Part shown: positions 12,201 through 36,200 of the stretch, piece by piece
How positions within the stretch are numbered: position 1 is the stretch's first letter
Layout: each line of letters starts with the position of its first letter
NCBI GenBank assembly: GCA_036785375.1
Contig: JAWMAR010000423.1
Location: 310,001-374,000 of the forward strand
Direction of reading: 5' to 3'
Length of the DNA: 64,000 nucleotides
From: Leucoraja ocellata
Taxonomy: Eukaryota
Notes under the pieces: model-generated
Databases searched by the model: none
Seen by the model: only the letters and a program-made list of their open reading frames with translations
Told to the model about the DNA's origin: nothing
Translations under genes and position numbers: made by a program

Positions 12201-15200
12201 TTGCAGGCCTTACAACATAGACCATTCGGCCCATCTAGTCCATGGCCGTGGAGGCCCACATGCTTGGTTGGCGCTGCGTTCAAAGGCCATTTAGCCATCT
12301 CTGTTGCTTTAACGCGTGCTAGGGCAGCAATGTCCACCATTCTCCAGTAATGCTGCTATATTGTCACCCTTCACCAGTGGCCGCTATCCAGTTCTCGTCA
12401 TGTCCCTCCACCAGACTGCAGTCACACCCTCGAGGACACTACCTGCTCTTCCACTGAGGTGCCGACCCAGGGATCCAGGGGATCGGCACCGACCCCCAGC
12501 ATCAGTTGATCAAATTCTTTCTGTGTTTCTGTTTTAGGCTGATGGAGAACTTGGGGCAGGAAGCTACTTGGCAATGAAACATGTGAGTTAGTTCAGGTAG
12601 AAGGAACGTCAACCACACTCACCCTGTTAGTACAGTGACCCCTGACCCCACAGTGACCCCTGACCCCACTCACCCTGTGAGTACAGTGACCCCTGACCCC
12701 ACTCACCCTGTGAGTACAGTGACCCCTGACCCCACTCACCCTGTGAGTACAGTGACCCCTGACCCCACTCACCTTGTGAGTACAGTGACCCCTGACCCCA
12801 CTCACCCTGTCTACAGTGTGACCCCTGACCTAACTCACAACCAGTACACAGAAACCCCCTGACCCTGCTCACGCTGTGTTGAACAAAAAACCCTTGCCCA
12901 CCCTCACTCTATGTACAGAGAGAGAGACCCCATTCCCTGCTGCCCCAATAAAGTGATCACGCTTACCCTGTGTACAGAGCGTCACTTGACCTATCAGACT
13001 CTGTGTTCAGTGATCCATGGCCATGAGTACAGAGAAATCTCTGTCCCTATGGAACCTGGGTCTAGAGTGACCACTGGAAACTCCGACCCTCTGTATGGTG
13101 CCGTGGTCTTGTGCCCTGTGACCCCTGACCCCACGACCTCATGTATAGACAGAACCCTGATCCCTGACCTGATGCCCAGTGATCCCTGACCCTACATAAG
13201 GGATAATGATGTCAGGTTGATGTTTATACCCCTCACACCCAGTGCAGGAAACCATTCCAGGCACCGTGGTCTGTTCAGATTTACATTGGGAGCGGACCTG
13301 GTGGGGTTATCTCTTTGTCTCTGTCTTTTAGGATAATGTAGAACGTGCAACAATGAGCAGGCTGGCAGACAAACAAGTGAGTTAGTTCCAGTAGTTTAGT
13401 TTAGTTTAGAGACACCGTGCGGAAACAGGCCCTTTGGCCCACCGAGTCAGCGCCGACCAGCGATTCCCGTACACTAGCACTATCCTATACACTAGGGACA
13501 ATTTACAGTTTCTACAGAAGCCAATTAACCTACAAACCTGTACATCTTTGGTGTGTGGGAGGAAACCGGAGCACCCGGGGAAAACCCACGCAGTCACTGG
13601 GAGAACGTCCAAACTCCGTACAGACAGCACCTGTAGCTTGGATCGAACCCGGGACCCTGGCGGTGTAATGTATAAACTCTACCGCCTCGCCCAGGCCGTA
13701 GAGGGAATGACAACCCCGCTCACCTGTGAATACTGTGACCCATGGACCCACTCACCATTTCTACAGGGTGACCCCTGGCCCCACTGTCCTAAACATAGTC
13801 ACCTGTCTCAACTCACTGTGCTCCCCCTTAACCTGACCCCACACACAGTGCGCAGACTGACCCTTGGCCCCACCTGCCATTCTTCTCATTTCCTTCACTG
13901 ACTGTGTGATGAAAGATCTTCCGGGCTCCTCTCCTCCACACACTTTTGTCTTGAATGGTTTATGATAATGGATGAATGATTTGATTCTATTTCTTTCCAA
14001 TTTTAGGGATTTTTAAACCGTACGCCTACAACAGCAGAACTTGACAAATCAGTGAGTTTGCCCTCTAGTGTAGTGACTGAGGCTTTCAGCTCATTAAGCA
14101 CCTTGACCCAAGTTCCTCTTGAGCTAGACCCTGTCTACAGTCCTCACCCACTGACCCCAATGTACGGTGTAACCCCTGACCCCATGTGCAGTGTGACCCT
14201 TGAATCTCCTGAACCATGTACGCAGTGTGACCCTTGAACCCAGTGATCCACGCACATAATCACTGAACCCACTAACCCTGTGTACAGAGCCGCCCCCCCC
14301 CACTGTATAGACTGGTACAGCGTGACTCCTGACCACTGCTACTGTACCTGCTGACCCCGAAACCTACTGACCTCGTGTAGACTGACCCCTCCCATGTACT
14401 GACCGGTACACTGTGAACCCTGATCCCATTGAACAGTATTACTTCATCCCCTGCACTGACCAATACACTGTGACCTCTCAATCTGCTGACCCCTGACTCT
14501 TGTATCAGCATGTACACTGTGACCCATGAACCTGTGGATACTGTTTTCATTGTAAGAGGAATTGGTTATTTAATCATTGTGTGTAGCCACTTTGTGGCGC
14601 CCCACCCTCCATGTGACGCATCTCCCTCCAGCTCCTTTTCCTGTTAATATGCCTTGATTATCAGCAACTTTATGTTTGACGTGAACATGCCTTCAGCTGC
14701 CATTTACAGGAGAGACATTCACACTTCCAACCTATTTTCACGTTCCCTGTTTCCCAGCAGGCTAGTTCTCTCCGTTAGACTGAGTCCTTTGTGCCTCATC
14801 TGCCCAATCATAAAAGTCACTCGTTTTCGATCTCACCTTGTTGTTCTGATTTATATCTGACAAACCGGGAAGGAATCCTCCAGATGCCAGGCTAAACTTG
14901 CCTGGTTTGTGGAGTCTGCATTAACCTCTGGGTGGAGGACACAGATACCATCAGGGCGTTCTGGCTTGGTGTGTGCCTCCGAGCTGCTCACACCTCTCCA
15001 GCTGGGTTTGCACGGGGACCATGTACACCCTTTGTACAGCCCGTTGCGGTCCAGCCCCTTGAATGGAAATTGTTGATTTAATTCTGATCTTTACCTAACT
15101 TTTTCCAAGGATCAAGACTATATAAAAAACTGGAAATGCTGGAGATACACAGTAGGTCAGATATAGAGAGAAAGTGTTAATCTTTCAGCTCAACGATCCT

Positions 15201-18200
15201 TTATCTGGACGTGGTTTGAGGATGCAGAGGGGTGACGGGAATGGAGGGGTAGGGCCGGAGAGACTGGGCAAGGTGATGCGTACCGGTCAGGCGGAGACAC
15301 TGAGCCAGGTCAACAAACCGAGGGTGGGCCTGGAGGAGGTATAAACGGGGGCGGGAGACATGTTTAGAAATGTTACGGATGCTGGAAATCGAATTGCAAG
15401 CGGTAGTGCTGCTGATCTGGTGGTTGACATCAGGTGTGGATTGCCCAGGTGTTCAGTGCCTTGCTAGGAGACAAGGTGCAATTCCTCACGGTTTCCTTGG
15501 AAGTGTGAAAGAGGCTGAGCACGAGATGGAAGTGAGAGGGCAGATTATTGTGATGGACAAATGAAAGTTCTGCCTGTTTTTCGTTCTCCACAGAGTTCAC
15601 CCTGCATTTAGTCTCCTTGGTGCAGAGGAGATTATATCTCGAGCAGCAAATACTATGAATCATAGAATCGTACAGCACAGGAACTGGCTTTAAGCTCACT
15701 TCATCTAAGCCGGCCTGTCGTGATGTCTATCTATTGCTATCCCCTGTGGTCTGAAGGCAGATGTTCCACAAAGCGGTTACCCAATGATTTTGGTTTCCCC
15801 AGTGTAGAGGAGACCATGCTGTGAACACTGAATGCACTCCACTAGATTGTAAGAAGTGCAAGTGAATGACTACTTCACCTGGATAAACTATTTGCGTCCC
15901 TGGATAGTGGGAAGAGTTGAAAAGACAAATGTGTCACCTGTGGGTGCAGGGAAATTGCTGTAAGAAACGGGGTGGTTGGTGAGAACGGAAACCAGGGAGC
16001 CATAGAGGGAACGTACAGAAAGGGAAGGAGAGAGGGAGATGTGTCTGGAGAGAGCGATCTGTTGGATGCATAGGCTGGTGGGGTGGGAGGTGAGGACCAG
16101 GGGAGCTCGATTCTTGTTCTGTTTCGTAGGAGAGTGTGAGAGCAGAGGCATGGGTAATAGATCAGATGCAGTCAAGATCTTTGTTAAGAGTGGTAAAGGG
16201 GAAACTGGTGTTCAGGAAGAAGGAAGACATTCCAGAGACACCAGTACAGAAAGTCTCTTCATCGGAGCAAACATGGCGGAGATGGAAGGGCTGGGAGAGT
16301 AGAACAGAGTCCTTGCAAAAGGCAGGACGAAGAGTAATCTAGAAAGCTGCAGTAGTCGATAGCCTTGCAATGAGTCTTAGTGGCACGTCTGAGATGGAGA
16401 TTGAGAGGTCTGGAAAGGAGAAGAAAAGAGTCAGTGATTGACCATGTGATGGTGAGGACAGGGTTGAATTGGCAGCCAAAGTGATGAAATATTCGAGTTT
16501 AACATGAGTGCAGGAAGCAGCACGAAGGTAGTCATGGATGCACTGCGAGAAAAGTTGAGGGAATGGGTTCAGATAGGACTGACACAAAGACTTTTCCTTA
16601 AAAAGTCAGCCATGGCTTGAGCTCATGTGAGTGCCCACAGCTGCACCAGTGGGTGGAGTTCAAGAATAAATTGTTCAATGTGAGGATGTTGGGCCGGGTG
16701 AATGCGTTTGTTGGGCTGGGGAATTGGTTGGGAAGTAGTGGAGGCTCAATGGACACTCGTGGTGTGGGATGGTGATGTAAAGAGACTGTATGTCCATGGT
16801 GAGGACCAGAGAATTGCAAACAGGCAGGGTGTTGGAGGGCAGTAGAGGTGTCACAGATGACATCAGACTTTTGTGGTGTTTGGTTGAGGCCGTACACATT
16901 GGACAGACAGCGTTCGTTGTTGCCTCGCCGGCGATTGTGTTGAGGATTTTGTGCTTCTGATTCACTGAGTTTTCCCAGGACGTCTATCATGCTCTCCTCG
17001 TCCTTTACAGTCAATAACACCACTGCATTCACCATCCCCACCATAGCCTTATGTCCACTCGCCGTGTCCATGCGTTCCTTGCCTAAGGCACCTTCCCTGC
17101 TCCACAACACCCTTCTTTGGATACCACCCAGTAACGTCACTCAGAGACGCGGAGTCCTATTGACACTGGCCCTGTGCACACCAGCACATACTGGGGTGTA
17201 TACCAACTGTGTACACAGGCGCGTGTGCACAGTGTCCCGCAGACTGCTGAGAAGCCTGAGTATGTGTGCCAAGTGGACAATGTGTTAGCCTCCCCTTCGC
17301 ACAGCAGTGTTCACCCAACTTTCACCTTAGGTATGGTGACACCAGAGCTCTAGACTGTAAGATCATTAACCTCTGACCCTCTCCACCCATCTCGTGTACA
17401 CTGACACTCTCCCCATTCTGACCCCATCCATCTGTGTATTCTGACCCTGTCCTCTCCTTTTCAGATTTGTTGACATTCTTTTTGTGTTTTAGGCCATGTA
17501 TAGAAATATGACAGTTCAAACTCCAGTGAAACGAGTGAGTGTGTCCTTTGTACAACAATGCAGTGGTCATTGTCACCATTGATTCTGTAGAGTATCAACC
17601 TATCTGCTTGGGTTTGTAACTGATTCCAAGGTACAGAGTAACACCTGACCCCCATTACAGAGCAGTCCCTGTCCCCACTGACTATGTGTTGTATAGTGAC
17701 CCCTGACCCCACTAACTGCAGTCACCTCTGACCCCATTGCCCCTATTTAGAGAGAAACCTCTTCCCCATGGACCCTGTGTACAGAGTGACCATTGAGATC
17801 ACTGATCCTTTGTATAGTCACAGCTGACCCCGGGCCTAGGCAGAACCCCCAATCTCACTGACCCTGTGACCAGTGACCCCTGTATAAAGGATGATGAAGG
17901 GTCTCAACCCGAAACACCACCTATTCCTTTTCTCCAGAGATGCTGCCCGACCCGTTGAATTACTCCAGATTTCTGTGCCGATCTAAGGGATGATGAGGTT
18001 GGGTGAAGTCGATACCCCTCACACCCAGTGTAGGGGATTATCCCAGGTACCGTGGTCAGTATGGATTTACATCGGGAGTGGACCTGCAGTTTCTTTTTGG
18101 GCTTATCTCTGTGTCTCTGTGTTTTAGGAAAATGTAGTACTTGAAGCATTGTCCAGACCGTCGCCGAAACAAGTGAGTTAGTTCAGGTAGAGGGTAGGAC

Positions 18201-21200
18201 AACCCTGCTCACCGTGTGAATACAGTGATCCCTGACCCCACTCGCCCCTGACCCCATGCACCGTGTTCAGGGTCTCCTTGACCCCACTGACCGGTCTGCA
18301 ATGACCCCTGACGCCACACCCTGTGGAGAGGGTCACCTCTGATCCACTGACCTGTGCACAAAGTGACCCCTGAATGTACTCGCACTTTGTACATTGACTG
18401 GCCGACCTACTACCTGTTGTGTACAGAGGGCCTCTGTTCCCTGACCCCCTTGTCCCTGTGTACGGGGTGACCGCACTCTCCCAGTGCACAACCAGACCCC
18501 TGTCCCTGCTATCTCTGGGGACAGAGACAGAGACCACCGTTCTCACTGACCCTATTTATTTGGAGACATTTCATCCCGATCAGCATGTCTGCTGAACTGT
18601 TTGAGCCTGTATGCAGAGGGTCCCCTTTCCCCTCTGACCCTGTGTAAAGAGGGAACACCGGGAGTCCCCAGTCACCTCTAACCTTGCCTCTGATGGGATT
18701 CATGTCCAAACCCAGGCATCGGGTGGGGCCTGTCCCCCGGGTTCGGTGCTGTTGTCACTCGGTGCCCCCGTGGTTCGTTTGCCGGTTTCCCGGTGTGAAC
18801 ACCAGCCCTGGGTCTGCTTCATCACAGCTGCAGATCACCGAGACCGACTCCCACCTCTGACGCCCTTCTGTGTGTTTGTGTTTTAGGCTTATGGTAGAAG
18901 TGTTACAGCTATGAAGCTTGCAGAGAAACAAGTGAGTTAGTACCCGCGTACATAGAGTAGCAGGAACCCACTGTGTAGACCGACTCTTGACCCCACTGAC
19001 CTTGAGGAAGGAGTGACCCATGACCCTACTGACCCTGTGCACATTTTGACCCTATGTACAGTTTGAACCTGTTGCCTTTGACCTTACTGTTAGAGTGGCT
19101 CCTGAACACGAGGTGATAATCCGATTTCTCTGACCCTTTGTTCAGTGACCCCTGACCTTGGGTATAGACATTACTGAGCCCTGTTCTCACTGACCCTATG
19201 TAAAGGATGACCTGTCCAGGTGAGACAGACGTTCATCTGCTCCTCCTGTAACCGCATCTACTCCATTCAATGCTATCGATGTGGCCTGCTCAACATTGGC
19301 GAGACTGTTTTGTCGAACACTTACAGTCTGTCCACAAAGGCCTGTTGGATCTCCCTGTTACCAACCATGTTAACTCCCCTTCCTACTTCCATATTGACTT
19401 TTCTGTCCTGTGCCTCCTTCATTACCAGAATGAGGACACAAGTGAACTGGAGGAAGTACACCTCATATTCTGCTTGGGTAACTTAAAACCCAACAACATG
19501 AACATTCAATTCTCAGATTTTAGGTAACCCTCCCCCCTAGCACCTCTGCTGACCATTCTAGGTTTTCTCTGCATACATTTCTTACCACTCCCTCTCCCCT
19601 GTCACCCCTGCCCCCACACTGACCCTGAGTACTGAGTGACACTTGAGCCACTCGCCCTGTGTACAGTGCGACCCCTGACCCTACCAACACTGTGCGCAGT
19701 GACCCCCCCCCGGCCCCACCAACATTCTATAGTTAACCCATTCACCCTGTGAGCAGTGACCCCTGACCTCCCTGAGGGCCCCCAGTCACCTCTAACCTTG
19801 CTGTGGATCAGAGATCCTATAGCGAACAAGATAGATCACTCGACGAAAAAGACGCAATACGGTCATGGGCAGATACATGGGAAATTTTAGGCCCCATTTC
19901 CGTATCCGGCTTCCGTCTCCGCACCAAAGATCCCATAGCGGAGCAAAGATAACTAGTGGGGAGATGGAAGCCGGTTACGGAAACATCCTCGTAAAAATAA
20001 AAGTTCTTTGGTAAAAATCTTCTTCTCATTTTCAGAATTTTAATTTACTAACACAACCTGTTCCACCGCAACATTGATTACACTGCGAGTCGGGTCGGGT
20101 TACGGAAATGGATGAAAAAAAGGCCCACGTTCCGCTCCGTTGCGTCAGCCCATTGCATTTAGCAGGAGTGATCTATCTTCCTCCGCTATAGGATTTTTGC
20201 CTTGGATGGGGTTCCTGTCCAAACCCAGGCATCGGGTGGGGCCTGTTCCCTGGGGACGGTACTGTCGTCACTCGGTGCCCCCATGGTCTGGTTGCCGGTT
20301 TCCCGGTGTGAACACCAGCCTTGGATCTGCTTCATCACAGCCGCAGATCACCGAGACCGACTCCCACCTCTGACATCCTGTGTGTTTGTGTTTTAGGATT
20401 ATGGTAGAAGTGTTGCAACTATGAAGCTTGCAGAGAAACAAGTGAGTTAGTAACCGCGTACAGAGAATAGCAGGAACCCACTGTGTAAACTGTTTCCTGA
20501 CCCCACTGACCTTGTGTAAGGAGTGACCCCTGACCCCAGTGACCCTGTGTACAGAATGAACACTGGCCACACCAGCCTTTGTGCAAAGGGACCTCTGATT
20601 CAGATTCAGATTCAGATTCAATTTAATTGTCATTGTCAGTGTACAGTACAGAGACAACGAAATGCATTATAGACAACGAAATGCATTTTGACCTGAACAC
20701 TTTGACCCCGTGTACAGTTCGACCCTGTTGCCTTTGACCTTACTGTTAGTGGCTCCTGAACACGAGGTGATAATCTAATTTCTCTGACCCTTTGTTCAGT
20801 GACCCCTGACCTTGTGTATAGACATTACTGAGCCCTGTCCTCACGGACCCTATGTAAAGGATGACCTGTCCAGGTGAGACAGACGTTCACCTGCTCCTCC
20901 TATAACCCCATCTACTCCATTCAATGATATCGATGTGGCCTGCTCAACATTGGCGAGACTGTTTTGTCGAACACTTACAGTCGGCCCACAAAGGCCTGCT
21001 GGATCTCCCTGTTACCAACCATGTTAACTCCCTTTCCTACTTCCATATTGACTTTTCTGTCCTGTGCCTCCTTCATTACCAGAGTGAGGACACGTGAACT
21101 GGAGGAAGTACACCTCATATTCTGCTTGGGTAACTTAAAACCCAACAACATGAACATTCAATTCTCAGATTTTAGGTAACCCTTCCCCCTAGCACCTCTG

Positions 21201-24200
21201 CTGACCATTCTAGGTTTTCTCTGCATACATTTCTTACCGCTCCCTCTCCCCTCTCACCCCTGCTCCCACACTGACCCTGAGTATTGAGTGACACTTGAGC
21301 CACTCACCCTGTGTACGGTGCGACCCCTGACCCTACCAACACTGTGTGCAGTGACCCCCCCCCGGCCCCACCTATATTCTATAGTAACTCCATTTACTCT
21401 GTGAGGAGAGTGACCCCTGACCTCCCTGAGAGCCCCCAGTCACCTCTAACCTTGCCTCGGATGACGCTCCTGTCCAAACCCAGGCATCGGGTGTGGGGCG
21501 GCCTGACATCCCCCCCCCCCTACAGCCAGCGCTGGTCCGTTTTCCGGTTCCCCGGTGTGAACACCCACCCTGGGTCTGCTTCATTACAGCCGCAGATCAC
21601 TGAGACCGACTCCCACCTCTGACGTCCTGTGTGTTTGTGTTTTAGGATTATGATGATAGACGTGTTACAGCTATGAAGATTGCAGGGAAACAAGTGAGTT
21701 AGTACCCCGCGTACAGAGAGTAGTAGAAGCTGTATAAAGTGCCCCTGAGCCCACTGAGCCTGTGTATGGAGTGAGTCCTAAGCCCACAGCCTACGTGTGC
21801 AGAATAGCCCTTGACCCAACTGACTGTATAACATGATCCCTGATCCTGCTGCCTCTGTTTTATAGTGACCTCTGACCCCACTCACACAGTGTTCGTATGA
21901 CCCCACTGACCCCACATTGACATGGTCATTTTGATTTAGAACTGCCTTACTCATTGCAGGCTGCTGTTGACGGGTTTATCACTATGTTTCTGTGTTTTAG
22001 GATAATTTAGGACGTGAGCCAATGACCCACCTGGTAGAGAGACCTGTGAGTTAGTTCAGGTAGAGGGGACGATAACCTCACTCAACCTGTGAACACAGTA
22101 CAGTGACCCCTGACCCCACGCACCCTATGAAATTGGTGACCCCTGACCCCACACCCTGTGAACACAGTGACCCCTGAACCCATTCATCCTGTGTATACAG
22201 TGACCCCTGATCCCACTCACCCTGTGAACAGTGACCCCTGACCCCACTTGCCTTATATACAGAGTGACCCTCGACCCCACTCGCACTCTTTACAGTGCCA
22301 CCCTTGACCTCACTCAATTGTATAGAGTGACCCCATGCATCTTGTGTGGTGTCCCCTGACCCCACTCACTTATCTATAGTCACTGCTGACGCCACTCCCC
22401 ATGTATACAGAGCCACCCTGACTCATTGTGTACAGAGTGATCATTGACCCCCACATACCATGTGAGGAGAGTCCTAACAGAGACCCCCCCCCCCCCCGTC
22501 AACTAACCTTGCCTTGGATTGGGTTCCTGCTTCATCGCAGCCGCAGATCCCACCTCTGACGTCCTGTGTGTTTGCGTTTTAGGATTACGATGATAGACGT
22601 GTTACAGCTATGAAGATTGCAGGGAAACAAGTGAGTTAGTACCCTGCGTACAGAGAGTAGGAGGAACCCACTGTGTACAGAGTAACTCCTGACCCCACTG
22701 CTCTTGAGCGCGGAGTGACCCTTGACCCCATGTACAGAGGGACCCTTGTCCTGACTGAACAGTCGTACAGCACTAGAAACAGGCCCTTTGGCCCACCACG
22801 GCCATGCCAATTATTGGACCCATCTATACTCATCCCATTTTTCTGCATTTGGACCTCAGTCTCCTCTGCCTGTGTGATGCAAGGACCTGTCTAGATGCTT
22901 CTTAAATGCTGTGATGTCTCTGCTCCCACCACTGCCTCAGGCAGCGCATTCCAGGTTCCAATCACACTCTTTGTAAAAGCATTCCCTTTCAGCCCTCTCT
23001 AAACCTCTCACTTTAAACCCATTCCCTCAAATCTACCATGGGGAAAAAGATTTTTGCTATCATTCCTATCTATTCCACTCCGCTCATAATTTTGTATACT
23101 TCTATCAGCTCATCCGTCAGACCCCAAAACTCCAGGGAAAGCAAATTCAGCCTATCCAGTTTATCCTTATAACTGAGGAATATATAATGGAGGCAAAACT
23201 TTTTTCGCCCAGGTTAGAAATATCAACAACCAGAAAGCATACCTGTAAGGTGCAGGGGGCAATGTTTAAAGAAGGTGCAGGGAATGTTTTTTACACAGAG
23301 GGTAGTGGGTGCCTGGAACGCGCTGCCAGGCCTGGTAGTGGAGGCACATACGGTTGTGGCTTTTAAGAGGCAATGACTGGAGGATTATGGATTATGTGCA
23401 GGCAAATCTTGGAATCATGTTCTGCACAGACATCCTGGACCAATGAGCTTGTTCCTGTTCTGTACTGTTCTATGAAATGCTCCAAACCATTCAATATCTC
23501 AAATTGTCTAAGCATGTTCCCCAGTGTAATCAGTCCTGTCCTATCGTGTGGTGACCAGACCTGTTCGCAATATTCGAGGTGAGGCCTAACCAGTGTTTTA
23601 TAAAGCTGTAACACCATGTCCCTGCTCTTATATTCTCTGGCCTGAACAATGAAGACAAGCATCAAAGATGCCTTCTTCACCACCCTCTCCACTTGGGCTG
23701 CCAGTTCCAGGGATCAGTGGGCCTCTACCGAAAGGTCCCTCTGTTCATCAACACTCTAGAGCTCTGCCGTTTACTGTGTCCACCTTAGTCTCAGACAACC
23801 CACCTCCCTCTCCACAAAAACACCAAGTCACCCATTGACCCCATGAGCTGACTGACCCTGATCCAAGTGAATCTGTGAACAGAGTGACCCCCCCCCCCCC
23901 CCCCCCCCCCATAACGCACATACAGATAGACCCCTGACAAAGACCCTGTGTACAGACTGACCCTTCACACCCAGTGCAGGGAACCATCCCAGGCACCGCG
24001 GGCAGCTCAGATTTACATCGGGTGCAGACCTGCAGATTGTTGATGGGTTTATCGCTGTGTTTTAGGATAATTTAGGACGTGAGCCAATGACCCACTCGGC
24101 AGAGAGACATGCGAGTTAGTTCAGGCAATGGGAATAACAACCCCACTCACCCTGTGAACACGGTGACCTCTGACCCCACTCATCCCGTGAACACAGTGAC

Positions 24201-27200
24201 CCCTGACCCCATTCACCTTGTGAATATGGTGACCCCTGACCGCACTCACCCTCTTTACATTGTGACCTTTGACGTCACTCAGTTGTATAGAGTGACCCCA
24301 TGACCCTTGTGCAGTGACCCCTGACCCACCCACTTATCTACAATCATTGCTGACTCCACTCCCCATGCGTACAAAGTGATCCCTGACCCCACATACCCTG
24401 TGAGGAGAGTGACTCCTAACAGAGCTCCCCCCCCCTCGTCACCTCTAACCTTGCCTTGGATGGGGTTCCTGCTTCATCGCTGCTGCAGATCCCACCTCTG
24501 ACATCCTGTGTGTTTGTGTTTTAGGATTATGACAGACGTGTTACAACTATGAAGATTGCAGGGAAACAAGTGAGTTAGTACCCTGTGTACAGAGAGTAGG
24601 AGGAACCCACTGTGTAGAGTAAACCCTGACCTCACTGCTCTTGTGCGCGGAGTGACCCTTGACCCCATGTACCAAGGGACCCTTGTCATGACTGACTCTG
24701 AACAGTCGTACAGCACTAGAAACAGGCCCTTTGGCCTACCATGGCCATGCCAATTATTGGACCCATCTATACTAATACCATTTACCTGCATATGGACCTC
24801 AGTCTGTGCGATGCAAGGGCCTGTATAGATGCCTCTTAAATCCTGTGATGTCTCAGCTTCCACCACTGGCTCGGGCAGCACATTCCAGATTCTAATCACA
24901 TTCTTTGTGAAAGAATTCCCTTTCAGTTCTCTCTAACCCTCACTTTAAACCCATTCCCTCAAATCTCAGACACCGCTACCATGGGAAAAAGATTTTTGCT
25001 ATCAATCCTATCTATTCCGCTCCGCTCATAATTTTGTATACTTCTATTAGATCATTTGTCAGACTCCAATACTCCAGGGAAAGCAAATTCAGCCTATCCA
25101 GTTTCTCCTTGTATAACTGAGTGTATAACTAGAAAGCATACCTATAAGGTGCAGGAGGCAATGTTTAAAGAAGGTGCAGGGAATGTTTTTTTACAGAGGA
25201 TAGTGGTTGCCTTGAACGCTCCGCCAGGCCTGGTGGTGGAGGCGTATACGATCGTGGCTTTTAAGAGGCAATGAATGGAAGATTATGGATTATGTGCAGG
25301 CAGATCTTGGAATCATGTTCTGCACAGACATCCTGGACCAATGTGCTTGTTCCTGTTCTGTACTGTTCTATGAAATACTCCAAACCTGGGGTGGGGAACC
25401 TTTTCATGGTGGAAGGATGCATTGTTGGCTGTGATCTAATAAGGCCGCATCCAAAAAGCTTCAAATAGATATACTTCAAAATGTACATTATTTTGTTAAA
25501 ATAGCCCTCATGACTTACTAATGTTTTAATTGTGGCCGTCATTCGGGGAGGATTATTTCGTTGAATGTTCTTTTACTCTTTGGTATTTTAAATAAGTTCA
25601 CTTTATGATTAAAATAAAAATAATAAAAGATAAACAAAAAACATATTAATAATAATAAAAAGATTTGTTCTACAAAATTTAGATTCATTCAAAAGGCCGC
25701 ACTTAATGGCTTAGAAGGCCGCAGGTCCCCACCCCTGCTCCAAACCATTCAATTTCTCAAATTGTCTAAGCATTTTCCCCAGTGTAATCAGACCTGTCCT
25801 ATCGTGTGGTGACCAGACCTGCTCGCAATACTGAGGTGAGGCCTAACCAGTGTTTTATAAAGCTGTAACACCATGTCCCTGCTCGTATATTCTCTGCCCT
25901 GACCAGTGAAGACAAACATCCCAGATGCCTTCTTCACCACCCTCTCCACGTGCTGCCAGTTCCAGGGATAGGTAGGCTTCTACCCAAAGGTCCAACTGTT
26001 CTTCAACAGTCTAGGCATCTACCATTTACTGTGTACACCCTACCCTTGACTGCCCTTGGAAAGTGCACCGCCTCACAATTGTCAGGATTAAATACCATCT
26101 ACCGTTGCTACATCCCGGCTTCCACCTGATCCATACCATGTTATAGTCTCAGACAACCCACCTCCCTCTCCACAAAAACACCAAGTCACCCATTGACCCC
26201 GTGTACCCCAATAACATGTATACAGATTGACCCCTGACCACGACCCTGTGTACAGACTGACCCTTGATCCCACTGACCCCGAGTACAATGACCCATTACA
26301 CCTTTTTACCTTGTATAAAGGATGATGATGTCAGGTTGATCATACCCCTCACACCCAGTGCAGGGAACCATCCCAGGCACCGTGGGCAGCTCAGATTTAC
26401 ATCGGGTGCAGACCTGCAGATTGTCGATGAGTTTATCGCTGTGTTTCTGTGTTTTAGGATAATTTAGGACGTGAGCCAATGGCCCATCCGGCAGAGAGAC
26501 GTGTGAGTTAGTTCAGGTAGAGGAAACGACAACCCCACTCACCCTGTGAACATGGTGACCCCTGACCCCCCCCTCGCCCTGTGAACACGGTGACCTCTGA
26601 CCCCACTCACCCTGTGAACACGGTGACCCCTAACCCCACTCACCCTGTGAACACAGTGACCCCTGACCCCACTCACACTGTGAACACGGTGACCCCTGAC
26701 CCCACTCACCTTGTGAACCTGGTGACCCCACTCACACAGTGTTTGTCTGACCCCACAGCGACCTGGTCATTTGGATTCTAAACTGCCTTACACATTGCAG
26801 TCAGTGAGAAGGGCTGTCAAATAATTCAGTGGAATGTAGATCAGCAACAGAAATGGCTGAAAAAATGGCAGATTGAGTTAATGTGAGCAAATGTGTGAGG
26901 TTTTGCATTTTGGAGGATTGAATGGAAAAACATACAGTTAATGGCAAGACACTTGATAACATTGATGTACAGAGATCTACATAGCTCCCAGAGAGTGGCA
27001 ACACACGCAGATAAAGGCATGTGGTATGCTTGCCCTCGCTGGTTGAGTAGAAGAGTCAGGGAGTCATAATGCAGCTAATGGCCACATTTGGGGAGTACAT
27101 CCTGCAGTTCTAATCATCCCATTATTGTGAAGGCTTTGAGGAGAGGTTTAACATAATGCTACTTAGTCCAGGTGGTATTAGCCACAAAGAGAGGTTGGAC

Positions 27201-30200
27201 AAACTTAGGATTGTTTTCTCTGGAAAGATGGAGGTTGAGGGGTGTCCTGACTGAAGAAAACAAAACGATGAGAGGCATAGATAGGGTAGACAGTCAGCAC
27301 CTTTTTTCCCCAGGGTGAAAATGTCAAAAACTAGAGGGCATAGCTTTAAGATGAGAGGGGCAAAGCGTAAACGAGATGTGTGGGGCAAGTTTTTTTACAC
27401 AAAGGGTGGTCAGTGCCTGGAACATGCTTCTAGTGGTGGTTGTTGAGGTAAATACTATGGGTTTTAAAGAGGCTTTTAGATAGGCATATACATGTAGAGT
27501 GATGTGGATTGTGAGCAGGCAGATGAAATTAGTTTATCTTTGCATCATTTGCAACACAGATATTGTGAGCCGAAGGGCTGTATTTCTTCTGTGTTCAGAG
27601 TGTTCTGTGTACAGAGTGGCCCTGAGCTCAATGACACTCTGTCCAGAATGACCATTCACGGTATGTTCATACTGATCCCTGATCCCAGCAACCCTATGTG
27701 TTGTGACCACATATCCACGAACCCTGCGGAAAACCCTGACCTGAGTGACCACCTGCAGTGATCCCTGACCCCAGTTAACCCTATGTATAAACAGAACCCT
27801 GACCTCGCTGACACAGTGTTCAGTAACCTCTGGCCCACTGACCCTGTATAAAGGATGAAGATGTCAGGTTGATGTCCGAACCCCCAGGACCCAGTGCAGG
27901 GAGTGATCCCAGGCACTGTGTGGTCTATTCGGATTTACATCGAGAGCAGCCCTGGAGATCGCTGATGGGTTTGTCTCTGTGTTTCTGTGTTTTAGGATCA
28001 TTTAGGACGTGAGGCAGTAACCAGGCCGGCAGAGAAACAAGTGAGTTAGTTCAGGGACAGGGAGCGTCAACCCTATGAACACAGTGACCCCACTCGCCTT
28101 GTGTACAGAGTGACCCTTCCCGACAAGCATCCCAGATGCCTTCTTCACCACCCTCTCCATTTGTGCTGCCATTTCCAGGGACCAGTGGGCATCAACCCAA
28201 AGGTCCCTCTGTTCTTCAACACTCTAGAGCTCTGCCGTTTACTGTGTCCACCTTACCCTTGACTGCCCTTGGAAAGTGCACCGCCTCACGAATTGTCAGG
28301 ATTAAATACCATCTACAGTTGCTCCATCCAGCCTTCCACCTGATCCATACCATGTTGTAGTCTCAGACAACCCACCTCCCTCTCCACAAAAACACCGTCA
28401 CCCATTGACCCCATGTACTGACTGACCCTGATCCAAGTGAATCTGTGAACAGAGTGACCCCACTGCCCCATAATGTGCAGACAGATTGACCACTGACAAC
28501 GATCCTGTGTACAGACTGACCCTTGATCCCACTGACCCCGAGTTCAATGACCCATTACACCTTTTTACCTTGTTATAAAGAATAATGATGTCAGGTTGAT
28601 TTTCATACCCCTGACACCCAGTGCAGGGAACCATCCCAGGCACCGTGGGCAGCTCAGATTTACATCGGGAGCGGACCTGCAGATTGTGGATGAGTTTATT
28701 GCTGTGTTCTGGGGTAATTTAGGATGTGGGCCAATGACCCACCCGGCAGAGAGACATTGTGAGTTAGTTCAGGTAGAGGAAACGACAACCCCACTCACCC
28801 TGTGAACACGGTGACCCCTGACCCCACTCACCCTGTGAACACGGTGCCTCTGACACCGCTCACCTTGTATACAGTGACCCTTGACCCCACCCACCTTCAT
28901 CACAGAGTGACCCTTTACCCCACTCGCCTTGTATAGAGTGATCCTTGACCCCACTCACCCTCATTACTGTGTGACCCTTGACCTCACTCAGTGTGTACAG
29001 AGCGACCCCATGCACCTTTTGCAGTGACACCTGACCCCACCCACTTGTCTACAGTCATCGCTGACTCCACTCCTCATGTGTAGAGAGCCACCATGACTCA
29101 CTGTGTACAGCGTGATCCCTGACCCCACATACCCTGTGAGGAGAGTGACTCCTAACAGAGGGCCCCCCGTCATCTCTAACCTTGCCTTGGATGGGATTCC
29201 TGCTTCATCACAGCTGCAGATCCCACCTCTGACGTCCTGTGTATTTGTGTTTTAGGATTATGACAGACGTGTTACAGCTATGAAGATTGCAGGGAAACAA
29301 GTGAGTTAGTACCCTGTGTACAGAGAGTAGGAGGAACCCACTGTGTACAGAGTAACCCCTGACCCCACTGCTCTTGTGCCCGGTGTGACCCTTGACCACA
29401 TGTACTGAGGGGACCGTTGTCCGGATTGACTCTGTGAACAGTCGTACAGCACTAGAAACAGGCCCTTTGGCCCACCACGGCCATGCCAATCATTGGACCC
29501 ACCTCTACTAATACCATTTACCTGCATATGGACCTCAGTCTCCTCTGCCTGCGAAGCAAGTGCCTGTCTAGATGCTTCTTAAATGCTGTGATGTCTCTGC
29601 TTCCAACACTGCCTCGGGCAGCCCATTCCAGGTTCCAATCACTCTCTTTGTGAAAGAATTCCCTTTCAGTCCTCTCTAACCCTCTCACTTTAAACCCATT
29701 CCCTCAAATCTCAGACAACGCAAGCATGGGGTAAAAGATTTTTGCTATCCATCCTATCTCTTCCACTCCGCTCATAATTTTGTATACTTCTATCAGGTTA
29801 CCCGTCAGACTCCAAAACTTCAGGGTAAGCTAATTCAGCCTATCCAATTTCCCCTTATAACTGAGGAATAAATGCCAGCCTGGCGGTGGAGGCACATACG
29901 ATTGTGGCATTTAAGAGGCAATGAACGGAGGATTATGGATTATGTGCAGGCGGATCTTGGAATGTTCTGCACAGACATCCTGAACCAATGGGCTTGTTCC
30001 TGTTCTGTACTGTTCTATGAAATGCTCCAAACCATTCAATATATCAAATTGCCAAAGCATGTTCCCTAGTGTAATAGACAATAGGTGCAGGAGTAGGCCA
30101 TTCGGTCCTTAGAGCCAGCACTGCCATTCAATGTGATCATGGCTGATCATCCCCAATCAGTACCCCGTTCCTGCCTTCATTCCATAGCCCCTGACTCCGT

Positions 30201-33200
30201 AATCAGACCTGTCCTATCATGTGGTGACCAGACCTGCTTGCAATACTGAGGTGAGACCTAACCAGTGTTTTATAAAGCTGTAACACCATGTCCCTGCTCT
30301 TATATTCTCTACCCTGACCCGTGAAGACAAGCATCCTAGATGCCTTCTTCACTTCCCTCTCCACTTGTGCTGCCAGTTCCAGGGATAGGTAGGCCTCTAC
30401 CCTAATGTCCATTTGTTCATCAACAGTCTAGGCATCTACCGTTTACTGTGTCCACCTTGCCCTTGACTGCCCTTGGAAAGTGCACCGCCTCACAATTGTC
30501 AGGATTAAATACCATCTACAGTTGCTCGATCCAGCCTTCCACCTGATCCATACCATGTTGTGGTCTCAGACAACCCACCTCCCTCTCCACAAAAACACCA
30601 AGTCACCCATTGACCCCATGTACTGACTGACCTTGATCCAACTAAGCCTGTGAACAGTGACCCCCCCCCAACATAACGTGCATACAGATTGACCCCTGAC
30701 CACGACCCGTGTACAAACTGACCCTTGACCCCCACTGACCCCGAATACAATGACCCTTTACACGTTTTTACCTTGTATAGAGGATGATGATATCAGGTTG
30801 ATGGTCCTACCCCTCACACCCAGTGCAGGGAACCATCCCAGGCACCGTGGGCAGCTAAGATTTATGTTGGGAGCAGACCTCCAGCTTGTTGATGAGTTTA
30901 TCGGTGTGTTTTGTGTTTTAGGATAACTTAGGACGTGAGCCAATGACCCAACCGGCAGAGAGACGTGTGAGTTAGTTGAGGTTGAGGGAACGACAAACCC
31001 CACTCACCTTGTAAACACAGTGACCTCTGACCCCACTCACCTTGTAAACACGGTGACCCATGATCCCACTCACCCTTATACAGGGTGACCATTGACCCCA
31101 CTCATCCGCGTCACAGTGCGACCTTTGACATCACTCATTGTATACAGAGTGACCCCCCGACCCCACCCACTTGTCGATAGTCACCGCTGACGCCACTCCC
31201 CGTATGTACAGAGCCACCCTGCCTCACTGTGTACAGCGTGATTCCTGACCCCACATACAATAGACATTAGGTGCAGGAGTAGGCCATATGGCCCTTCGAG
31301 CCAGCACCGCCATTCTATGTGATCATGGCTGATCATCCTGTGAGGAGAGTGACTTCTAACAGAGAGCCCCCCCCCCGTCACCTCTAACCTTGCCTCAGAT
31401 GGGGTCCCTGCTTCATCACAGCTGCAGATCCCACCTCTGACATCCTGTGTGTTTGTGTTTTAGGATTATGACAGGCATGTTACAGCTATGAAGATTGCAG
31501 GGAAACAAGTGAGTTAGTACCCTGTGTACAGAGAGTAGGTGGAACCCACTGTGTACAGAGTAACCCCTGACCTCACTGCTCTTGTGCCCTGCCTCACAAT
31601 TGTCAGGATTAAATACAATCCACGGTTGCTCCATCCAGCCTTCCACATGATCCATACCATGTTGTAGTCTCAGACAACCCACCTCCCCCTCCACAAAAGC
31701 ACCAAGTCACCCATTGGCCCCATGTACTGACTGACCTTGATCCAAGTGAACCTGTGAACAGAGTGACCCCCCCCTCCATAATGTGCATACAGAGTGACCC
31801 CTGATCACGACCCTGGGTACAGACTGACCCTTCATACCCCTCACACCCATTCCAGGGAACCATCCCAGGCACCGTGGGCAGCTCAGATTTACATTGGGAG
31901 CGGACCTGCAGATTGTTGATAAGTTTATCGCTGTGTTTCTGTGTTTTAGGATAATTTAGGACGTGAGCCCATGTCCCAACCGGCAGAGAGACAAGTGAGT
32001 TAGTTCAGGCAGCGGGAATGACAACCCCACTCACTCTGCGAACACGGTGACCCCTGACCCCACTCACTCATTGTACAGTGTCCCCTGAGCCCAGTCACCT
32101 TGTGAGTATGGTGACCCGTGACCCTGCTCACCCTGTAAACACAGTAACCCCTGACCCCACTCACCCTGTGCACACAGTGACCCCTGACCCCACTCACCCT
32201 GTGCACACGGTGACCCCTGACCCCACTCACCCTGTGAACACGGTGACCCTTGACCCCATTCACCCTCTTTACAATGTGACCGTTGACCTCATTCAATGTG
32301 TAGAATGACCCCATACACCCTGTGCAGTGACCCCTGACCCCACCCACTTGTCTACAGTCACCGCTGACGCCACTCAGAATGATCCCTGACCCCCACATAC
32401 TCTGTGAGGAGAGCGACTCCTAACGGAGGGCACCCTATCACCTCTATCCTTGCCTTGGATGGGGTTCCTGCTTCATGGCAGCTGCAGATCCCATCTCTGA
32501 CATCCTGTGTGTTTGTGTTTTAGGATTATGATAGACGTGTTACAGCTATGAAGATTGCAGGGAAACAAGTGAGTTAGTACCCTGTGTACAGAGAGTAGGA
32601 GGAACCCACTGTGTACAGAGACACCTGACCCCACTGACCTTGTGTAAGGAATGACCCCTGACTCTGCTGACCCTTTGGTCAGAGTGATCACTATTCTTGC
32701 CCCCATGCACAAAAATCACCCCTGACCCCACTAATCCTTTGAACAGAATGAACACTGGCCACACCAGCCTTTGTGCAAAGGGGCCTCGGAACAGGCCTTT
32801 GACCTGTGATAGACACAAAGTGCTGGAGTAACTCAGCAGGTCAGGCAGCATCTCTGGAGAAAACTAATAGGTGATGTTTCGGGTCAGACTGATGAAGGGT
32901 CTCAACACGAAACGTCACCTATTCCTTTTCTCCAGAGATGTTTCCAGTCCCGCTGAGTTACTCAAAATATTATGTCTATCATCGGTGTAAACCAGCATCT
33001 ACAGTTCCTTCTTACACCTTTGACCCTGTGTACAGTTTGACACCGTTGCCTTTGACCTTACTGTTAGAGTGACTCCTGAAAACTACATAGTGACAATCTG
33101 ATTCCTCTGACCCTTTGTTCAGTGACCGCTGACCCTGTGTATAGACATTACTGAGCCCTGCCCTCAGTGACCTTGTGTAAAGGATGACCTGTCAGTCCTT

Positions 33201-36200
33201 CTAGCTGAGACAGGCGTTCAGCCCGTCTACTGCATTCAATGATGTGGCCTGCTCCACATTGGCAAGACTGATTCACCGAACACTTGCAGTCGGTCCACCA
33301 AGGCCTGCTGGATCTCTTGGTTACTGTCCATTTTAACTCTCCTTCCCATTCCCATATCGACCTGTCTGTCCTGGGCCTCCTCCATTACCAGTGTGAGGCC
33401 CTACATAATCGGAGGAACCACACCTCATATTCTGCTTGGGTAGCTTACAACCCAACACCTTGCCACAGATAGGTTTCCTGTCCAAACCCAGGCATCGGGG
33501 GGGAGCCTGTCACCCGGGGCTGTTGCTGTCGTCACTTGGTGACCCCTTGGTCCCGTTGTCAGTTTCCCGGTGTGAACACCAGCCCTGGGTCTGCTTCACC
33601 ATAACCACAGATCACCGAGACCGACTCCCATCTCTGACGTCCTTCTGTGTGTTTGTGTTCTAGGAGCATGGTAGAAATGTCACACCTATGAAGCTTACAG
33701 AGAAACAAGTGAGTTAGTACCCGCGTACAGAGAATAGCACAAACCCACTGTGTACAGAGCCACCTGACCCCACTGACCTTGTGTATATAGTGACCCCTAA
33801 CCCCAATGACTATATGTACGGAGTGACCACTGATCCCTCTTTCCCTTTAGTCAGAGTGATCCCCAATCCTGCCCCACGTACAAAATTACCCCTGACCCCA
33901 CAAATCCTCTATACCGAATGAACACTGGCCACAGCAGCAAAGAGGCCTCTGAACCCTTTGTCCCTGAGATAGGCACAAAATGCTGGTCTCTCAGCAGGTT
34001 AGGCAGCCATCTCTGGAGAAAACAAATAGGTGACGTTTCGGATCAGACTGATGAAGGGTCTTGACCCACCCCCCACGGTCTCACCAACATTCTATAGTAA
34101 TCCCATTCACCCTGTAAGGAGAGTGTCCCCTGACCTCCCTGAGGGCCCCCAGTCACCTCTAACCTTTCCACGGAAGGGGTTCCTGGCCAAACCCAGGCAT
34201 CGGGTGTGGCCTGTCCCCCGGAGCCGGTGCTGTTGTCACTCAGTGCCCCCGTGGTCCAGTTGCCGGTTTCCCGGTGTGAACACCAAGCCTGGGTCTGCTT
34301 CATCACAGCCGCAGATCACCGAGACCCTCCCACCTCTGACGTCCTTCTGTGTGTTTGTGTTCTAGGAGCGTGGTAGAAATGTCACACCTATGAAGCTTGC
34401 AGAGAAACAAGTGAGTTAGTACCCGCGTACAGAGAATAGCACAAACCCACTGTGTACAGAGCCACCTGACCCCACTGACCTTGTGTACATAGTGACCCCT
34501 AACCCCAATGACTATATGTACGGAGTGACCACTGATCCCTCTTTCCCTTTAGTCAGAGTGATCCCCAATCCTGCCCCATGTACAAAATTACCCCTGACCC
34601 CACAAATCCTCTGTACAGAATGAACACTGGCAGCACCAGCCTTTATGCAAAGAGGCCTCTGAACCCTTTGTCCCTGAGATAGACACAAAATGCTGGAGTC
34701 ACTCAACAGGTTAGGCAGCATCTCTGGAGAAAACAAATAGGTTATGTTTCAGATCAGACTGATGAAGGGTCTCGACCCGAAAGGTCACCTATTCCTTTGT
34801 TACTCCAGCATTTTGTGTCTTTCTTTGGTGTAGTTATGCAGTTACTTCTTACACCTTTAACCCTGTGTCCAGTTTGACCTTGTTGCCTTTGACCTTACTG
34901 TTAGTGACCCCTGAACACTACAGAGTGACGATCGGATTCCTTTGTTCAGTGACCGATGGCCGTGTGTATAATCATTACTGAGCCCATGTCCTCACTGGCC
35001 CTGTGTAAAGGGTGACCTGTCAGCCCTTCCAGGTGAGACAGAAATTCATGTGCACCTTCTATAACCCCATCTACTGCATACAATGCTATCGATGTGGCCT
35101 GCTCCACATTGGCGAGACTGTTTCGCCAAACACTTGCAGTCGGTCCACCAAGGCCTGCTGGATCTCTCGGTTACTAACCATCTTAACTCCCCTTCCCATT
35201 CCCATAGCGGCCTTTCTGTCCTGGGTCTCATCCATTACCAGAGTGAAGCCACACAGAGACTGGAGGAACCACACATCATATTCTGCTTGGGTGGCTTACA
35301 ACCCAACATGAAAACTGTGTGCAGTGACCTCCCCCCCCCCCCCACGGTCCCACCAACATTCTATAGTAATCCCATTCACCCTGTAAGAGAGTGTCCCCTG
35401 ACCTCCCTGAGGACCCCCAGTCACCTCTAACCTTTCCACGGAAGGGATTCCTGTCCAAACCCAGGCATCGGGTGGGGCCTGTCCCCCGGTGCTGTTGTCA
35501 CTCGGTGCCCCCGTGGTCCAGTTGCCGGTTTCCCGGTGTGAACACCAAGCCTGGGTCTGCTTCATCACAGCCGCAGATCACCGAGACCGACTCCCACCTC
35601 TGACGTCCTTCTGTGTGTTTGTGTTTTAGGAATATGACAGGCATGTTACAGCTATGAAGATTGCAGGGAAACAAGTGAGTTAGTACCCAGCATACAGAGA
35701 GTAGCAGAACCTATATCAAGTGACCCCTGAGCCCACTGAGCCCATGTAAAGAGTAGCCCCTGATCAACCATGGGGATGATCAGCCATGATCACATTGAAT
35801 GGCGGTGCTGGCTCGAAGGGCCGAATGGCCTACTCCTGCACCTATTGTCTATTGGCCCCTGACCCAATTGGTCCTACAATGTAACCCCGGACCTTGTTTA
35901 ACCTGTCTGCTGAGAAATTCCTGTCTGCCTTCACTCTGTGTGCAGAGGGAAACATCTTTCCCAATGACCCCATTTATGTGGTGACTTTGATCCCACTCAC
36001 CTCATTGACCTAGCCTGACCCTGCTTCACCCTGTGTACAGAGTGACCTCTCGCTCCATTCTACTCTGATCTTTCTCTCTTTAGCCTTCTGCACTCTTCCA
36101 ATGAAAGTCAACATAGCTGGAAGAAAATCACCAAATTAAGAGTTACATTTTCAAATAACCTGCCTCTGAGCCTGAGCTGGCCAACACTGATGCAATGTCT

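What the first reader, a model, noticed from the sequence alone, without database searches (positions are those of the whole stretch)
12538..35674. Tandem array of 22 in-frame mini-exons between the CH and LIM domains of a MICAL3-like gene
Seen: across 23 kb that looks like repetitive intron, the pattern pyrimidine/TG tract-AG, 42/45/48-nt open frame, GTGAGT (one GCGAGT) recurs 22 times. Starts are 12538, 13332, 14007, 17493, 18128, 18887, 20397, 21646, 22001, 22583, 24066, 24525, 26458, 27996, 29256, 30922, 31464, 31950, 32524, 33664, 34366 and 35630. All are phase 0/0, matching the flanking exons (10608 and 40857), and stop-free; they total 993 nt (331 aa). Recalled: mammalian MICAL2/3 have only a short linker here with no repeat domain. 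Inference: a lineage-specific exon-multiplication system giving either a long ~15-aa repeat spacer or, because every exon is symmetric, combinatorial or mutually exclusive isoforms of an actin-oxidising enzyme. I know of no description of this.
Basis: partly seen in the sequence, partly recalled or inferred. Interest (0 to 1): 0.95.

Follow-up and report, generated by a model that had tools for sequence, protein, structure and literature searches.

The report
Mini-exon repeat tail of skate MICAL3
In a skate, the gene for the actin-dismantling enzyme MICAL3 holds 22 tandemly copied mini-exons followed by an early stop exon, so it probably makes a short enzyme in which a long, fast-changing repeat tail replaces the usual brake domains; a catshark seems to have built a similar array separately.

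Summary
They arose by tandem duplication of exon plus flanking intron. Splice sites and frame are under selection (3 changes seen, about 15 expected); the peptide sequence is not (dN/dS about 0.95).

The gene is MICAL3; 500 of 500 ordinary-exon residues match a Leucoraja erinacea RefSeq protein. RefSeq already models the array: 11 of 12 isoforms carry 7-20 copies in series, so they are not mutually exclusive. All 11 stop at or within the array, 8 of them at an overlooked last exon (Lys-Tyr-stop, 36574). The one full-length model skips the array.

Best reading: a short monooxygenase-CH enzyme with a basic, probably disordered tail, lacking the LIM and Rab-binding domains that autoinhibit MICALs. 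It is probably not a CH-LIM spacer in this species.

The 15-residue unit is older than skates: models from 11 of 18 elasmobranch species carry it, mostly 1-3 copies, and a catshark model has 21 different copies. My RNA lay was inconclusive, so expression rests on predicted models. The mechanism is known, but I found no paper describing this case.

The parts
6827..6974 (+). MICAL3 exon, first half of CH domain
   Evidence: Pfam CH E 8.8e-12; exact match to P0267
8162..8355 (+). MICAL3 exon, second half of CH domain
   Evidence: Pfam CH; exact match to P0267 564-627
10502..10608 (+). Last shared exon before the array (phase 1-0); splices to e1, to 40857, or further downstream in models
12538..12582 (+). 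mini-exon e1 (old, divergent; counterpart in Amblyraja model X15)
13332..13376 (+). mini-exon e2 (old, divergent)
14007..14051 (+). mini-exon e3 (old, divergent)
17493..17534 (+). mini-exon e4 (42 nt)
18128..18172 (+). mini-exon e5
18887..18931 (+). mini-exon e6, V class (VTAMK-type)
20397..20441 (+). mini-exon e7, V class
21646..21693 (+). mini-exon e8, V class (48 nt)
22001..22045 (+). mini-exon e9, P class (LGREPM-type); used only in model X9
22583..22630 (+). mini-exon e10, V class (48 nt)
24066..24110 (+). mini-exon e11, P class, GC donor; in none of the 11 models
24525..24569 (+). mini-exon e12, V class
26458..26502 (+). mini-exon e13, P class
27996..28040 (+). mini-exon e14, closest to the unit shared with sharks and rays
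   Evidence: best skate match for Mobula, Carcharodon, Cetorhinus, Mustelus, Pristiophorus and catshark units
29256..29300 (+). mini-exon e15, V class
30922..30966 (+). mini-exon e16, P class
31464..31508 (+). mini-exon e17, V class
31950..31994 (+). mini-exon e18, P class
32524..32568 (+). mini-exon e19, V class
33664..33708 (+). mini-exon e20, V class
34366..34410 (+). mini-exon e21, V class
35630..35674 (+). mini-exon e22, V class
36574..37010 (+). alternative last exon: Lys-Tyr-stop, then 3' UTR with AATAAA at 36987 (3' end inferred)
   Evidence: only AG|Lys-Tyr-stop site in the window; ends 8 of 11 short L. erinacea models and Rhinoraja model X13
40857..40964 (+). first linker exon of the long form (phase 0/0, skippable in Amblyraja models)
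46582..51492 (+). four further phase-0 linker cassette exons (46582-46665, 47086-47172, 47968-48054, 51385-51492)
54009..54198 (+). LIM-domain exon
   Evidence: Pfam LIM E 5.8e-6; 100% to Amblyraja MICAL3

Best explanation
A small ancestral set of 45-nt phase-0 cassette exons behind the CH domain of elasmobranch MICAL3 was multiplied in this skate lineage by repeated tandem duplication of exon plus intron, partly as a P-V pair of about 1 kb (shown). In some tissue or stage most copies are spliced in together and the transcript ends at the Lys-Tyr-stop exon (shown only in predicted RefSeq models). The product is monooxygenase-CH plus up to about 300 residues of basic, probably disordered 15-residue repeats, without LIM or the Rab-binding bMERB domain (shown from models). 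MICAL autoinhibition needs the C-terminal domains, so this form should be a Rab-independent, constitutively active F-actin oxidase (inferred from published MICAL work). The tail most likely acts by bulk properties, length and positive charge, as an electrostatic tether to actin or another acidic structure, possibly tuned by phosphorylation of its Arg..Ser/Thr motifs (inferred, untested). Elsewhere the array is skipped and ordinary full-length MICAL3 is made.
For: Duplicated blocks covering exon and introns at 76-95% identity; two young classes on the tree. Splice-site columns: 2 changes seen, 10.8 expected from the flanks, P=0.0014; adding frameshifting indels, 3 seen vs 15.3 expected, P=1.7e-4; both disabling lesions lie in one copy. 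11 of 12 L. erinacea models contain 7-20 units and all 11 stop early: 8 at Lys-Tyr-stop, 3 by read-through Val-Ser-stop. P0281 has Rossman_Mical and CH but no LIM or bMERB; P0267 has all four. A model of a second skate genus (Rhinoraja X13) also ends in Lys-Tyr right after the 10608 exon. Tail hydropathy 0.376 lies below the order boundary 0.435, pI 9.8; the catshark array is similar (0.380, pI 10.1) despite different sequence. PMC11315924 (passages): RBD binds and inhibits MO, conserved in MICAL3. PMC9982024 (passages): forms lacking that domain are constitutively active. PMC6949599 (abstract): MICAL3 MO-CH is F-actin-stimulated.
Against: No spliced read was seen directly; the one lay was inconclusive. 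The models are predictions, and near-identical exons can be mis-joined. All 14 long Amblyraja models lack units, and only X15 has e1. dN/dS among copies is 0.92 and 0.98, and the window differs from RefSeq at 7 of 301 array residues against 0 of 500 elsewhere: no sequence-specific function is evident. A GTGAGA donor at 36613 could make the stop exon an internal 39-nt poison exon. In other elasmobranchs the units sit in LIM-containing models. No tissue is known, and tail binding is untested.
Confidence: 0.55

Rival explanations
1. Spacer or rheostat in full-length MICAL3: copies are spliced into the CH-LIM loop L2, and their number tunes how easily CH, LIM and the Rab-binding domain close on the enzyme.
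For: All units are in frame with exon 40857. Shark and ray models carry 0-3 units in long forms, varying within a species (Mobula birostris 0/1/2, Mustelus 0/1/2, Carcharodon 0/1), and the catshark model has 21 units followed by LIM. PMC11315924 speculates that L2 and L3 length regulates autoinhibition (passages).
Against: 0 of 12 L. erinacea models join an array exon to 40857; the one long model and all 14 long Amblyraja models skip the array. The catshark model also lacks bMERB. Long-form models may be under-built when reads are short.
Confidence: 0.2
2. Unproductive or near-neutral array: it serves to divert or cut short MICAL3 transcripts (poison exon, premature polyadenylation, read-through stops), or is tolerated duplication, and the repeat peptide has no role.
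For: dN/dS about 1; fast change between the window and RefSeq; 20 of 22 donors read on into an in-frame TAG; possible donor at 36613; 7 of 18 species' models show no unit.
Against: Frame and stop-freedom are kept in 22 of 23 copies while the flanks carry 17 non-triplet indel events. A transcript meant for decay would not need an open frame. Unit length and basic character are kept across sharks and rays. The frameshift deficit alone is only P=0.06.
Confidence: 0.16
3. The methionine-rich tail is a redox buffer or decoy substrate for the methionine-oxidising enzyme it is attached to.
For: 20 Met in 331 residues, nearly one per unit.
Against: The catshark array has 1 Met in 315 residues, so Met is not a shared feature; MICAL specificity is for F-actin Met44/47 (PMC9982024, passages).
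Confidence: 0.06
4. Dscam-like mutually exclusive cluster: one unit per transcript.
For: Homologous neighbours of equal length and phase; Mustelus model X2 has a unit not seen with the other two.
Against: Models string 7-20 units. Introns are 307-3441 nt, too long for steric exclusion. The 25 longest of 99 inverted repeats are mostly interspersed elements, with no arm repeated before each exon.
Confidence: 0.03

Closest known systems
Vertebrate MICAL3 and MICAL splice forms (MO-CH-LIM-bMERB; PMC11315924, PMC3645671, PMC9982024, passages read)
   Same: Same gene and domain order; multiple splice forms, a variable interdomain linker and C-terminally short forms are known for MICALs.
   Different: The short forms described in those passages (MICAL2 PVa/PVb) keep LIM. 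Here the modelled short form stops after CH and carries up to 20 exon-encoded 15-residue repeats. The bony-vertebrate linker segment at this place shows no detectable similarity to the units (5 of 5 tested, P 0.24-0.58).
Avian fast troponin T P exons (PMC7581897, passages)
   Same: Lineage-specific tandem mini-exons coding repeat motifs in a variable region of an actin-associated protein, spliced in together.
   Different: Up to 7 exons, acidic His/Glu-rich, N-terminal, with known pectoral-muscle regulation. Here 22 exons, basic, coupled to an early last exon, tissue unknown.
Tandem exon duplication in general (PMC9013439, passages; MICAL occurs 0 times in its main text)
   Same: Same generating mechanism; that paper cites about 10% of animal genes as having tandemly duplicated exons.
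   Different: Usually linked to mutually exclusive choice; here the models show co-inclusion, and sequence drifts freely.
Schistosoma micro-exon genes (PMC4015677, passages)
   Same: Many small symmetric exons allowing in-frame skipping.
   Different: MEGs are mostly small secreted proteins with micro-exons making up to 75% of the coding sequence. Here the array is 31% (301 of 966 aa) of an enzyme from a cytosolic family, and the exons are paralogous copies.

Membership tests
MICAL3 gene | N-terminal MICAL monooxygenase plus CH domain | tested here: met
   CH exons in the window; Rossman_Mical and CH in P0281 and P0267; the window starts within the end of the MO region
MICAL3 gene | LIM and bMERB domains downstream | tested here: met
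   LIM exon 54009-54198; bMERB in P0267, beyond the window
MICAL3 gene | Closer to MICAL3 than to MICAL1/2 | tested here: met
   Best hits are named MICAL3 or mical3a and none of the 120 listed is named MICAL1/2; no tree with MICAL1/2 outgroups was built
Autoinhibited MICAL (short isoform considered) | LIM and Rab-binding domain in the same chain | tested here: not met
   P0281 has neither; all 11 array models stop before them
Tandem-duplicated symmetric exon repeat array (troponin T P-exon type) | Units are duplicated exon plus intron, in the same phase | tested here: met
Tandem-duplicated symmetric exon repeat array (troponin T P-exon type) | Copies are included together in mRNA | tested here: inconclusive
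   Yes in predicted models; direct reads inconclusive
Tandem-duplicated symmetric exon repeat array (troponin T P-exon type) | Tissue- or stage-regulated inclusion | not testable with these tools
   Runs are coded, with no tissue labels
Mutually exclusive exon cluster (Dscam type) | Exactly one copy per transcript | tested here: not met
   7-20 copies per model; predicted models only
Mutually exclusive exon cluster (Dscam type) | Steric exclusion or docking/selector pairing | tested here: inconclusive
   Introns >=307 nt; no per-exon arm among the 25 longest of 99 inverted repeats
Neural microexons (3-27 nt, upstream TGC; definition recalled) | Length up to 27 nt and TGC near the acceptor | tested here: not met
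   42-48 nt; TGC within 25 nt upstream in 1 of 22
Schistosoma MEG | Micro-exons form most of the coding sequence of a small secreted protein | tested here: not met
   301 of 966 residues, attached to an MO-CH enzyme; signal peptide not formally tested

The most novel reading that the evidence does not exclude
Elasmobranchs have a dedicated, tissue-restricted MICAL3 form in which the Rab-released brake is replaced by a splice-tunable polycationic tail. Each 45-nt exon adds one unit and most carry their own read-through stop, so splicing and 3'-end choice set tail length stepwise. Skates and catsharks lengthened the array independently to about 21-22 units from different ancestral copies, implying repeated selection on tail length rather than sequence for a fast-evolving actin-remodelling job (for example in germ cells or a sensory or electric tissue; tissue is a guess).
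Probability: 0.25. Interest if true: 0.75.

Novelty: new variant of a known kind. Interest (0 to 1): 0.5.

Why it matters
MICALs irreversibly dismantle actin unless reduced back, and are held in check by their C-terminal domains; the role of the CH-LIM loop L2 is stated to be unresolved (PMC11315924). A natural MO-CH-repeat form and a natural 0-to-21-unit length series in L2 across sharks and rays give ready-made constructs to test how linker length and charge set MICAL activity. The locus is also a clean case of exon-array growth where splice sites and frame are selected but peptide sequence is not, apparently twice in parallel. The mechanism itself (tandem exon duplication) is ordinary and the exons are already in automatic annotation, which limits the surprise.

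Tried and rejected
RNA: the run search with the last exon (36574-37010, 36 sampled words) listed 7 holders among 24 rows; no RNA holder listed.

Four raw RNA runs from four studies (X8, X10, X14, X17; 4 of the 12 raw RNA runs listed; about 1-25% of each read) were laid on 21001-41000. Reads from interspersed repeats swamped the result (63-97% of laid reads run on into unlike sequence). 15 of 644 joints were shown and none was a GT..AG joint between array exons. Depth in the bin holding exon 40857 was only 0.4-0.8. X10 alone had depth about 2 in the bins of e14 and e16 (others 0-0.36) but 0 and 0.09 in those of e13 and e18, and the e14/e16 bins share a duplicated segment. Inconclusive either way.

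AlphaFold2 of P0281 with a 37-sequence alignment gave mean pLDDT 37.5, with even the MO domain low; not used as evidence of disorder.

HMMER of the tail against 1.84 billion representatives gave 10 hits at E<=0.001. On inspection all were unrelated repeat proteins at 24-40% identity, none a MICAL. ESM Atlas: no usable feature hit, best TM 0.40. Pfam: no family on the skate tail; catshark hits to HTH_70 and others fall in the repeat and were treated as repeat artefacts.

Homology of the units to the bony-vertebrate linker exons was considered and not supported. Met decoy as a general function was rejected by the catshark array. Arg..Ser/Thr motifs exceed shuffles in skate (12 of 22 units for R-x-x-S/T) but not in catshark (3 of 7 unique) or other species (2 of 11), and copies are related, so this is weak.

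The whole genome was not available as a file, so other species were seen only as proteins; their exon boundaries were not checked, and no chimaera model was among the listed hits. No complex prediction was run.

Literature: 0 papers for MICAL3 + 'tandem exon duplication' and MICAL3 + skate. None relevant by title among 18 and 7 listed. None of 25 listed of 3,489 held the word MICAL. Most subscription papers are not in the library, and no supplements were read.
Full report
OBSERVATION. All 22 coordinates are correct. Each unit has a T/TG-rich tract and AG, an open phase-0 frame of 45 nt (19 copies), 48 nt (2) or 42 nt (1), and GTGAGT (one GCGAGT); the sum is 993 nt. A DNA profile of the units recovers all 22 at E<=2.5e-10 and one more copy at 28713-28758 with a GG acceptor and one extra base. 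The remaining 8 of 31 hits have E>=0.05. Twelve of 22 acceptors have a CTGAC branch-point-like word upstream (consensus recalled).

THE GENE. Exons at 6827-6974 and 8162-8355 encode CH and 54009-54198 encodes LIM. The LIM exon is 100% identical to Amblyraja radiata MICAL3, and the next hits are ray and shark MICAL3. Thirteen ordinary exons of the window match 500 of 500 residues of Leucoraja erinacea RefSeq isoform X12, P0267, so this is little-skate MICAL3 or that of a very close relative. The linker after the array consists of five more phase-0 cassette exons that Amblyraja models include or skip freely.

HOW THE ARRAY AROSE. Self-comparison shows duplicated blocks of 0.25-1.1 kb at 76-95% identity that cover exon and intron. 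The tree has five old divergent copies (e1-e5), an 11-copy V class and a P class. The order oooooVVVPVPVPPVPVPVVVV and 1-kb matches such as 22113-23182 with 28788-29870 show that a P-V pair was copied several times.

WHAT SELECTION KEEPS. By parsimony on the two young classes (11 and 6 copies, the latter including the dead one), flanks changed at 0.68 per site. The 16 AG/GTGAGT columns changed twice where 10.8 changes were expected (P=0.0014). Non-triplet indels numbered 17 in flanks (counted by hand from the alignment) and 1 in exons against 4.4 expected (P=0.06); combined P=1.7e-4. The dead copy carries both the lost acceptor and the frameshift. In contrast, pairwise dN/dS is 0.92 (9 of the 11 V copies, the 45-nt ones) and 0.98 (6 P-like copies); pairs are not independent. 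The window differs from RefSeq X1 at 7 of 301 array residues but 0 of 500 elsewhere (Fisher P=0.001). So spliceability, length and frame are maintained while the peptide drifts.

WHAT THE DATABASES ALREADY HOLD. A search of shorter proteins found L. erinacea isoform X4, whose cluster holds X1-X11. These 11 models contain 20, 19, 19, 19, 19, 19, 18, 11, 9, 9 and 7 units in genomic order, differing by skips of one exon (five models), two exons or a block. None reaches LIM. Eight end in Lys-Tyr-stop and three in Val-Ser-stop by reading into the intron. The twelfth model (2062 aa) joins 10608 to 40857. Pfam confirms MO and CH only for X1, and MO, CH, LIM and bMERB for X12. In other skates, Rhinoraja X13 goes straight from the 10608 exon to Lys-Tyr-stop, Amblyraja X15 has e1 plus Val-Ser-stop, and 14 long Amblyraja models have no unit. 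That such X models are usually guided by RNA-seq alignments is recalled; I did not see their support, and near-identical exons can create false skips.

OTHER SHARKS AND RAYS. Of 18 elasmobranch species whose models cover this place, 11 have at least one model with 15-residue units: L. erinacea, A. radiata, Mobula birostris (0-2), M. hypostoma (3), Carcharodon (0-1), Cetorhinus (1), Mustelus (0-2), Pristiophorus (0-1), Rhincodon (1), Chiloscyllium (2, partial model) and Scyliorhinus canicula (21). Seven show none in the models seen: Rhinoraja, Hypanus, Hemitrygon, Pristis, S. torazame, Heterodontus and Hemiscyllium. Two partial models (Narcine, Heptranchias) were left out. The common LGRE-type unit matches skate e14 best (0 of 500 shuffles as high). 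The catshark array is mostly a different unit type, shared with Mustelus and Chiloscyllium. Nearest-neighbour identity is 76% within skate (19 45-nt units), 95% within catshark and 31-33% between them, which points to separate expansions; this rests on proteins only. Five bony-vertebrate linkers show no similarity to the units.

DIRECT RNA TEST. Inconclusive; details are under Tried and rejected.

HOW IT PROBABLY WORKS. Shown: duplication history, selection on splice signals, and the early stop exon. Shown only in predicted models: co-inclusion and termination after the array. Inferred: MICAL autoinhibition depends on the Rab-binding domain docking on MO together with CH and LIM, and is conserved in MICAL3 (PMC11315924, passages). 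Forms lacking that domain are constitutively active (PMC9982024, passages), and MICAL3 MO-CH is stimulated by F-actin (PMC6949599, abstract). The short skate form should therefore be active without Rab. Its tail is basic and lies on the disordered side of the charge-hydropathy boundary, as does the catshark array. With dN/dS near 1, this favours a bulk electrostatic tether or localisation tail over a specific binding motif. I give this reading 0.55, the L2-spacer reading 0.2, an unproductive or neutral array 0.16, a Met decoy 0.06 and mutual exclusion 0.03. The spacer role may well be the ancestral one in sharks and rays with 1-3 copies.

COMPARISON AND NOVELTY. It works like the avian troponin T P exons (PMC7581897, passages) and is a case of tandem exon duplication (PMC9013439, passages; MICAL not mentioned in its main text). 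It fails the tests for a mutually exclusive cluster, neural microexons and schistosome MEGs (PMC4015677, passages). The MICAL3 splice events I read about are elsewhere in the gene (a 51-nt exon beside the coiled coil, PMC12721327, passages; PMC4465641, one passage; PMC3645671, passages). Searches found no description of the array; supplements were not read and could list it. Earlier scan notes report similar symmetric mini-exon arrays in unrelated genomes (unchecked), which argues that the class is not rare.

VERDICT. Real and under selection, already present in automatic annotation, apparently undescribed. Interest 0.5.

Noticed in passing
window, donors of e1-e22 (e.g. 12583-12591, 35675-35683): 20 of 22 donors read G[TC]GAGTTAG, an in-frame stop three codons into the intron; positions +7 to +10 are nearly invariant while +11 onward vary. 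Three L. erinacea models and Amblyraja X15 end this way. Could allow a ladder of truncated tails or be a splicing element.
   Followed up: partly
window 59843-60187: The exon at 59906 reads on into its intron as an open frame resembling the C-terminus of short shark models (P0017, P0024, P0254), so a second short end (MO-CH-LIM-tail) is conserved.
   Followed up: no
P0122 and P0271 (Hemitrygon, Mobula hypostoma): Stingray and devil-ray models show two other linker exons (counterparts of window 47086-47172 and 47968-48054) duplicated 2-3 times, so this linker is a recurrent site of exon duplication.
   Followed up: no
window 10608-40857: None of the elasmobranch models has the basic DKKEK and ERP-type linker segment that bony vertebrates carry at this place; the 45-nt units stand there instead.
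   Followed up: partly
window 36609-36649 and 36960-36992: The last exon's UTR contains a piece of an interspersed repeat with a GTGAGA donor at 36613. The AATAAA lies in sequence that looks like a retroelement 3' end (recalled), so the poly(A) signal may have been supplied by a repeat.
   Followed up: no
window 12632-12838, 22100-22316, 26532-26729, 28788-28990, 32024-32295: A 33-nt TGACCCC-rich minisatellite follows P-class exons and e1 and was co-duplicated; ACCCC is about ten times denser in the array than outside it. It may promote unequal crossing-over.
   Followed up: no
window 56548-57087, 57490-57906, 37948-38394: Decayed LINE reverse-transcriptase-like fragments in introns (identity recalled from motifs, not tested).
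   Followed up: no
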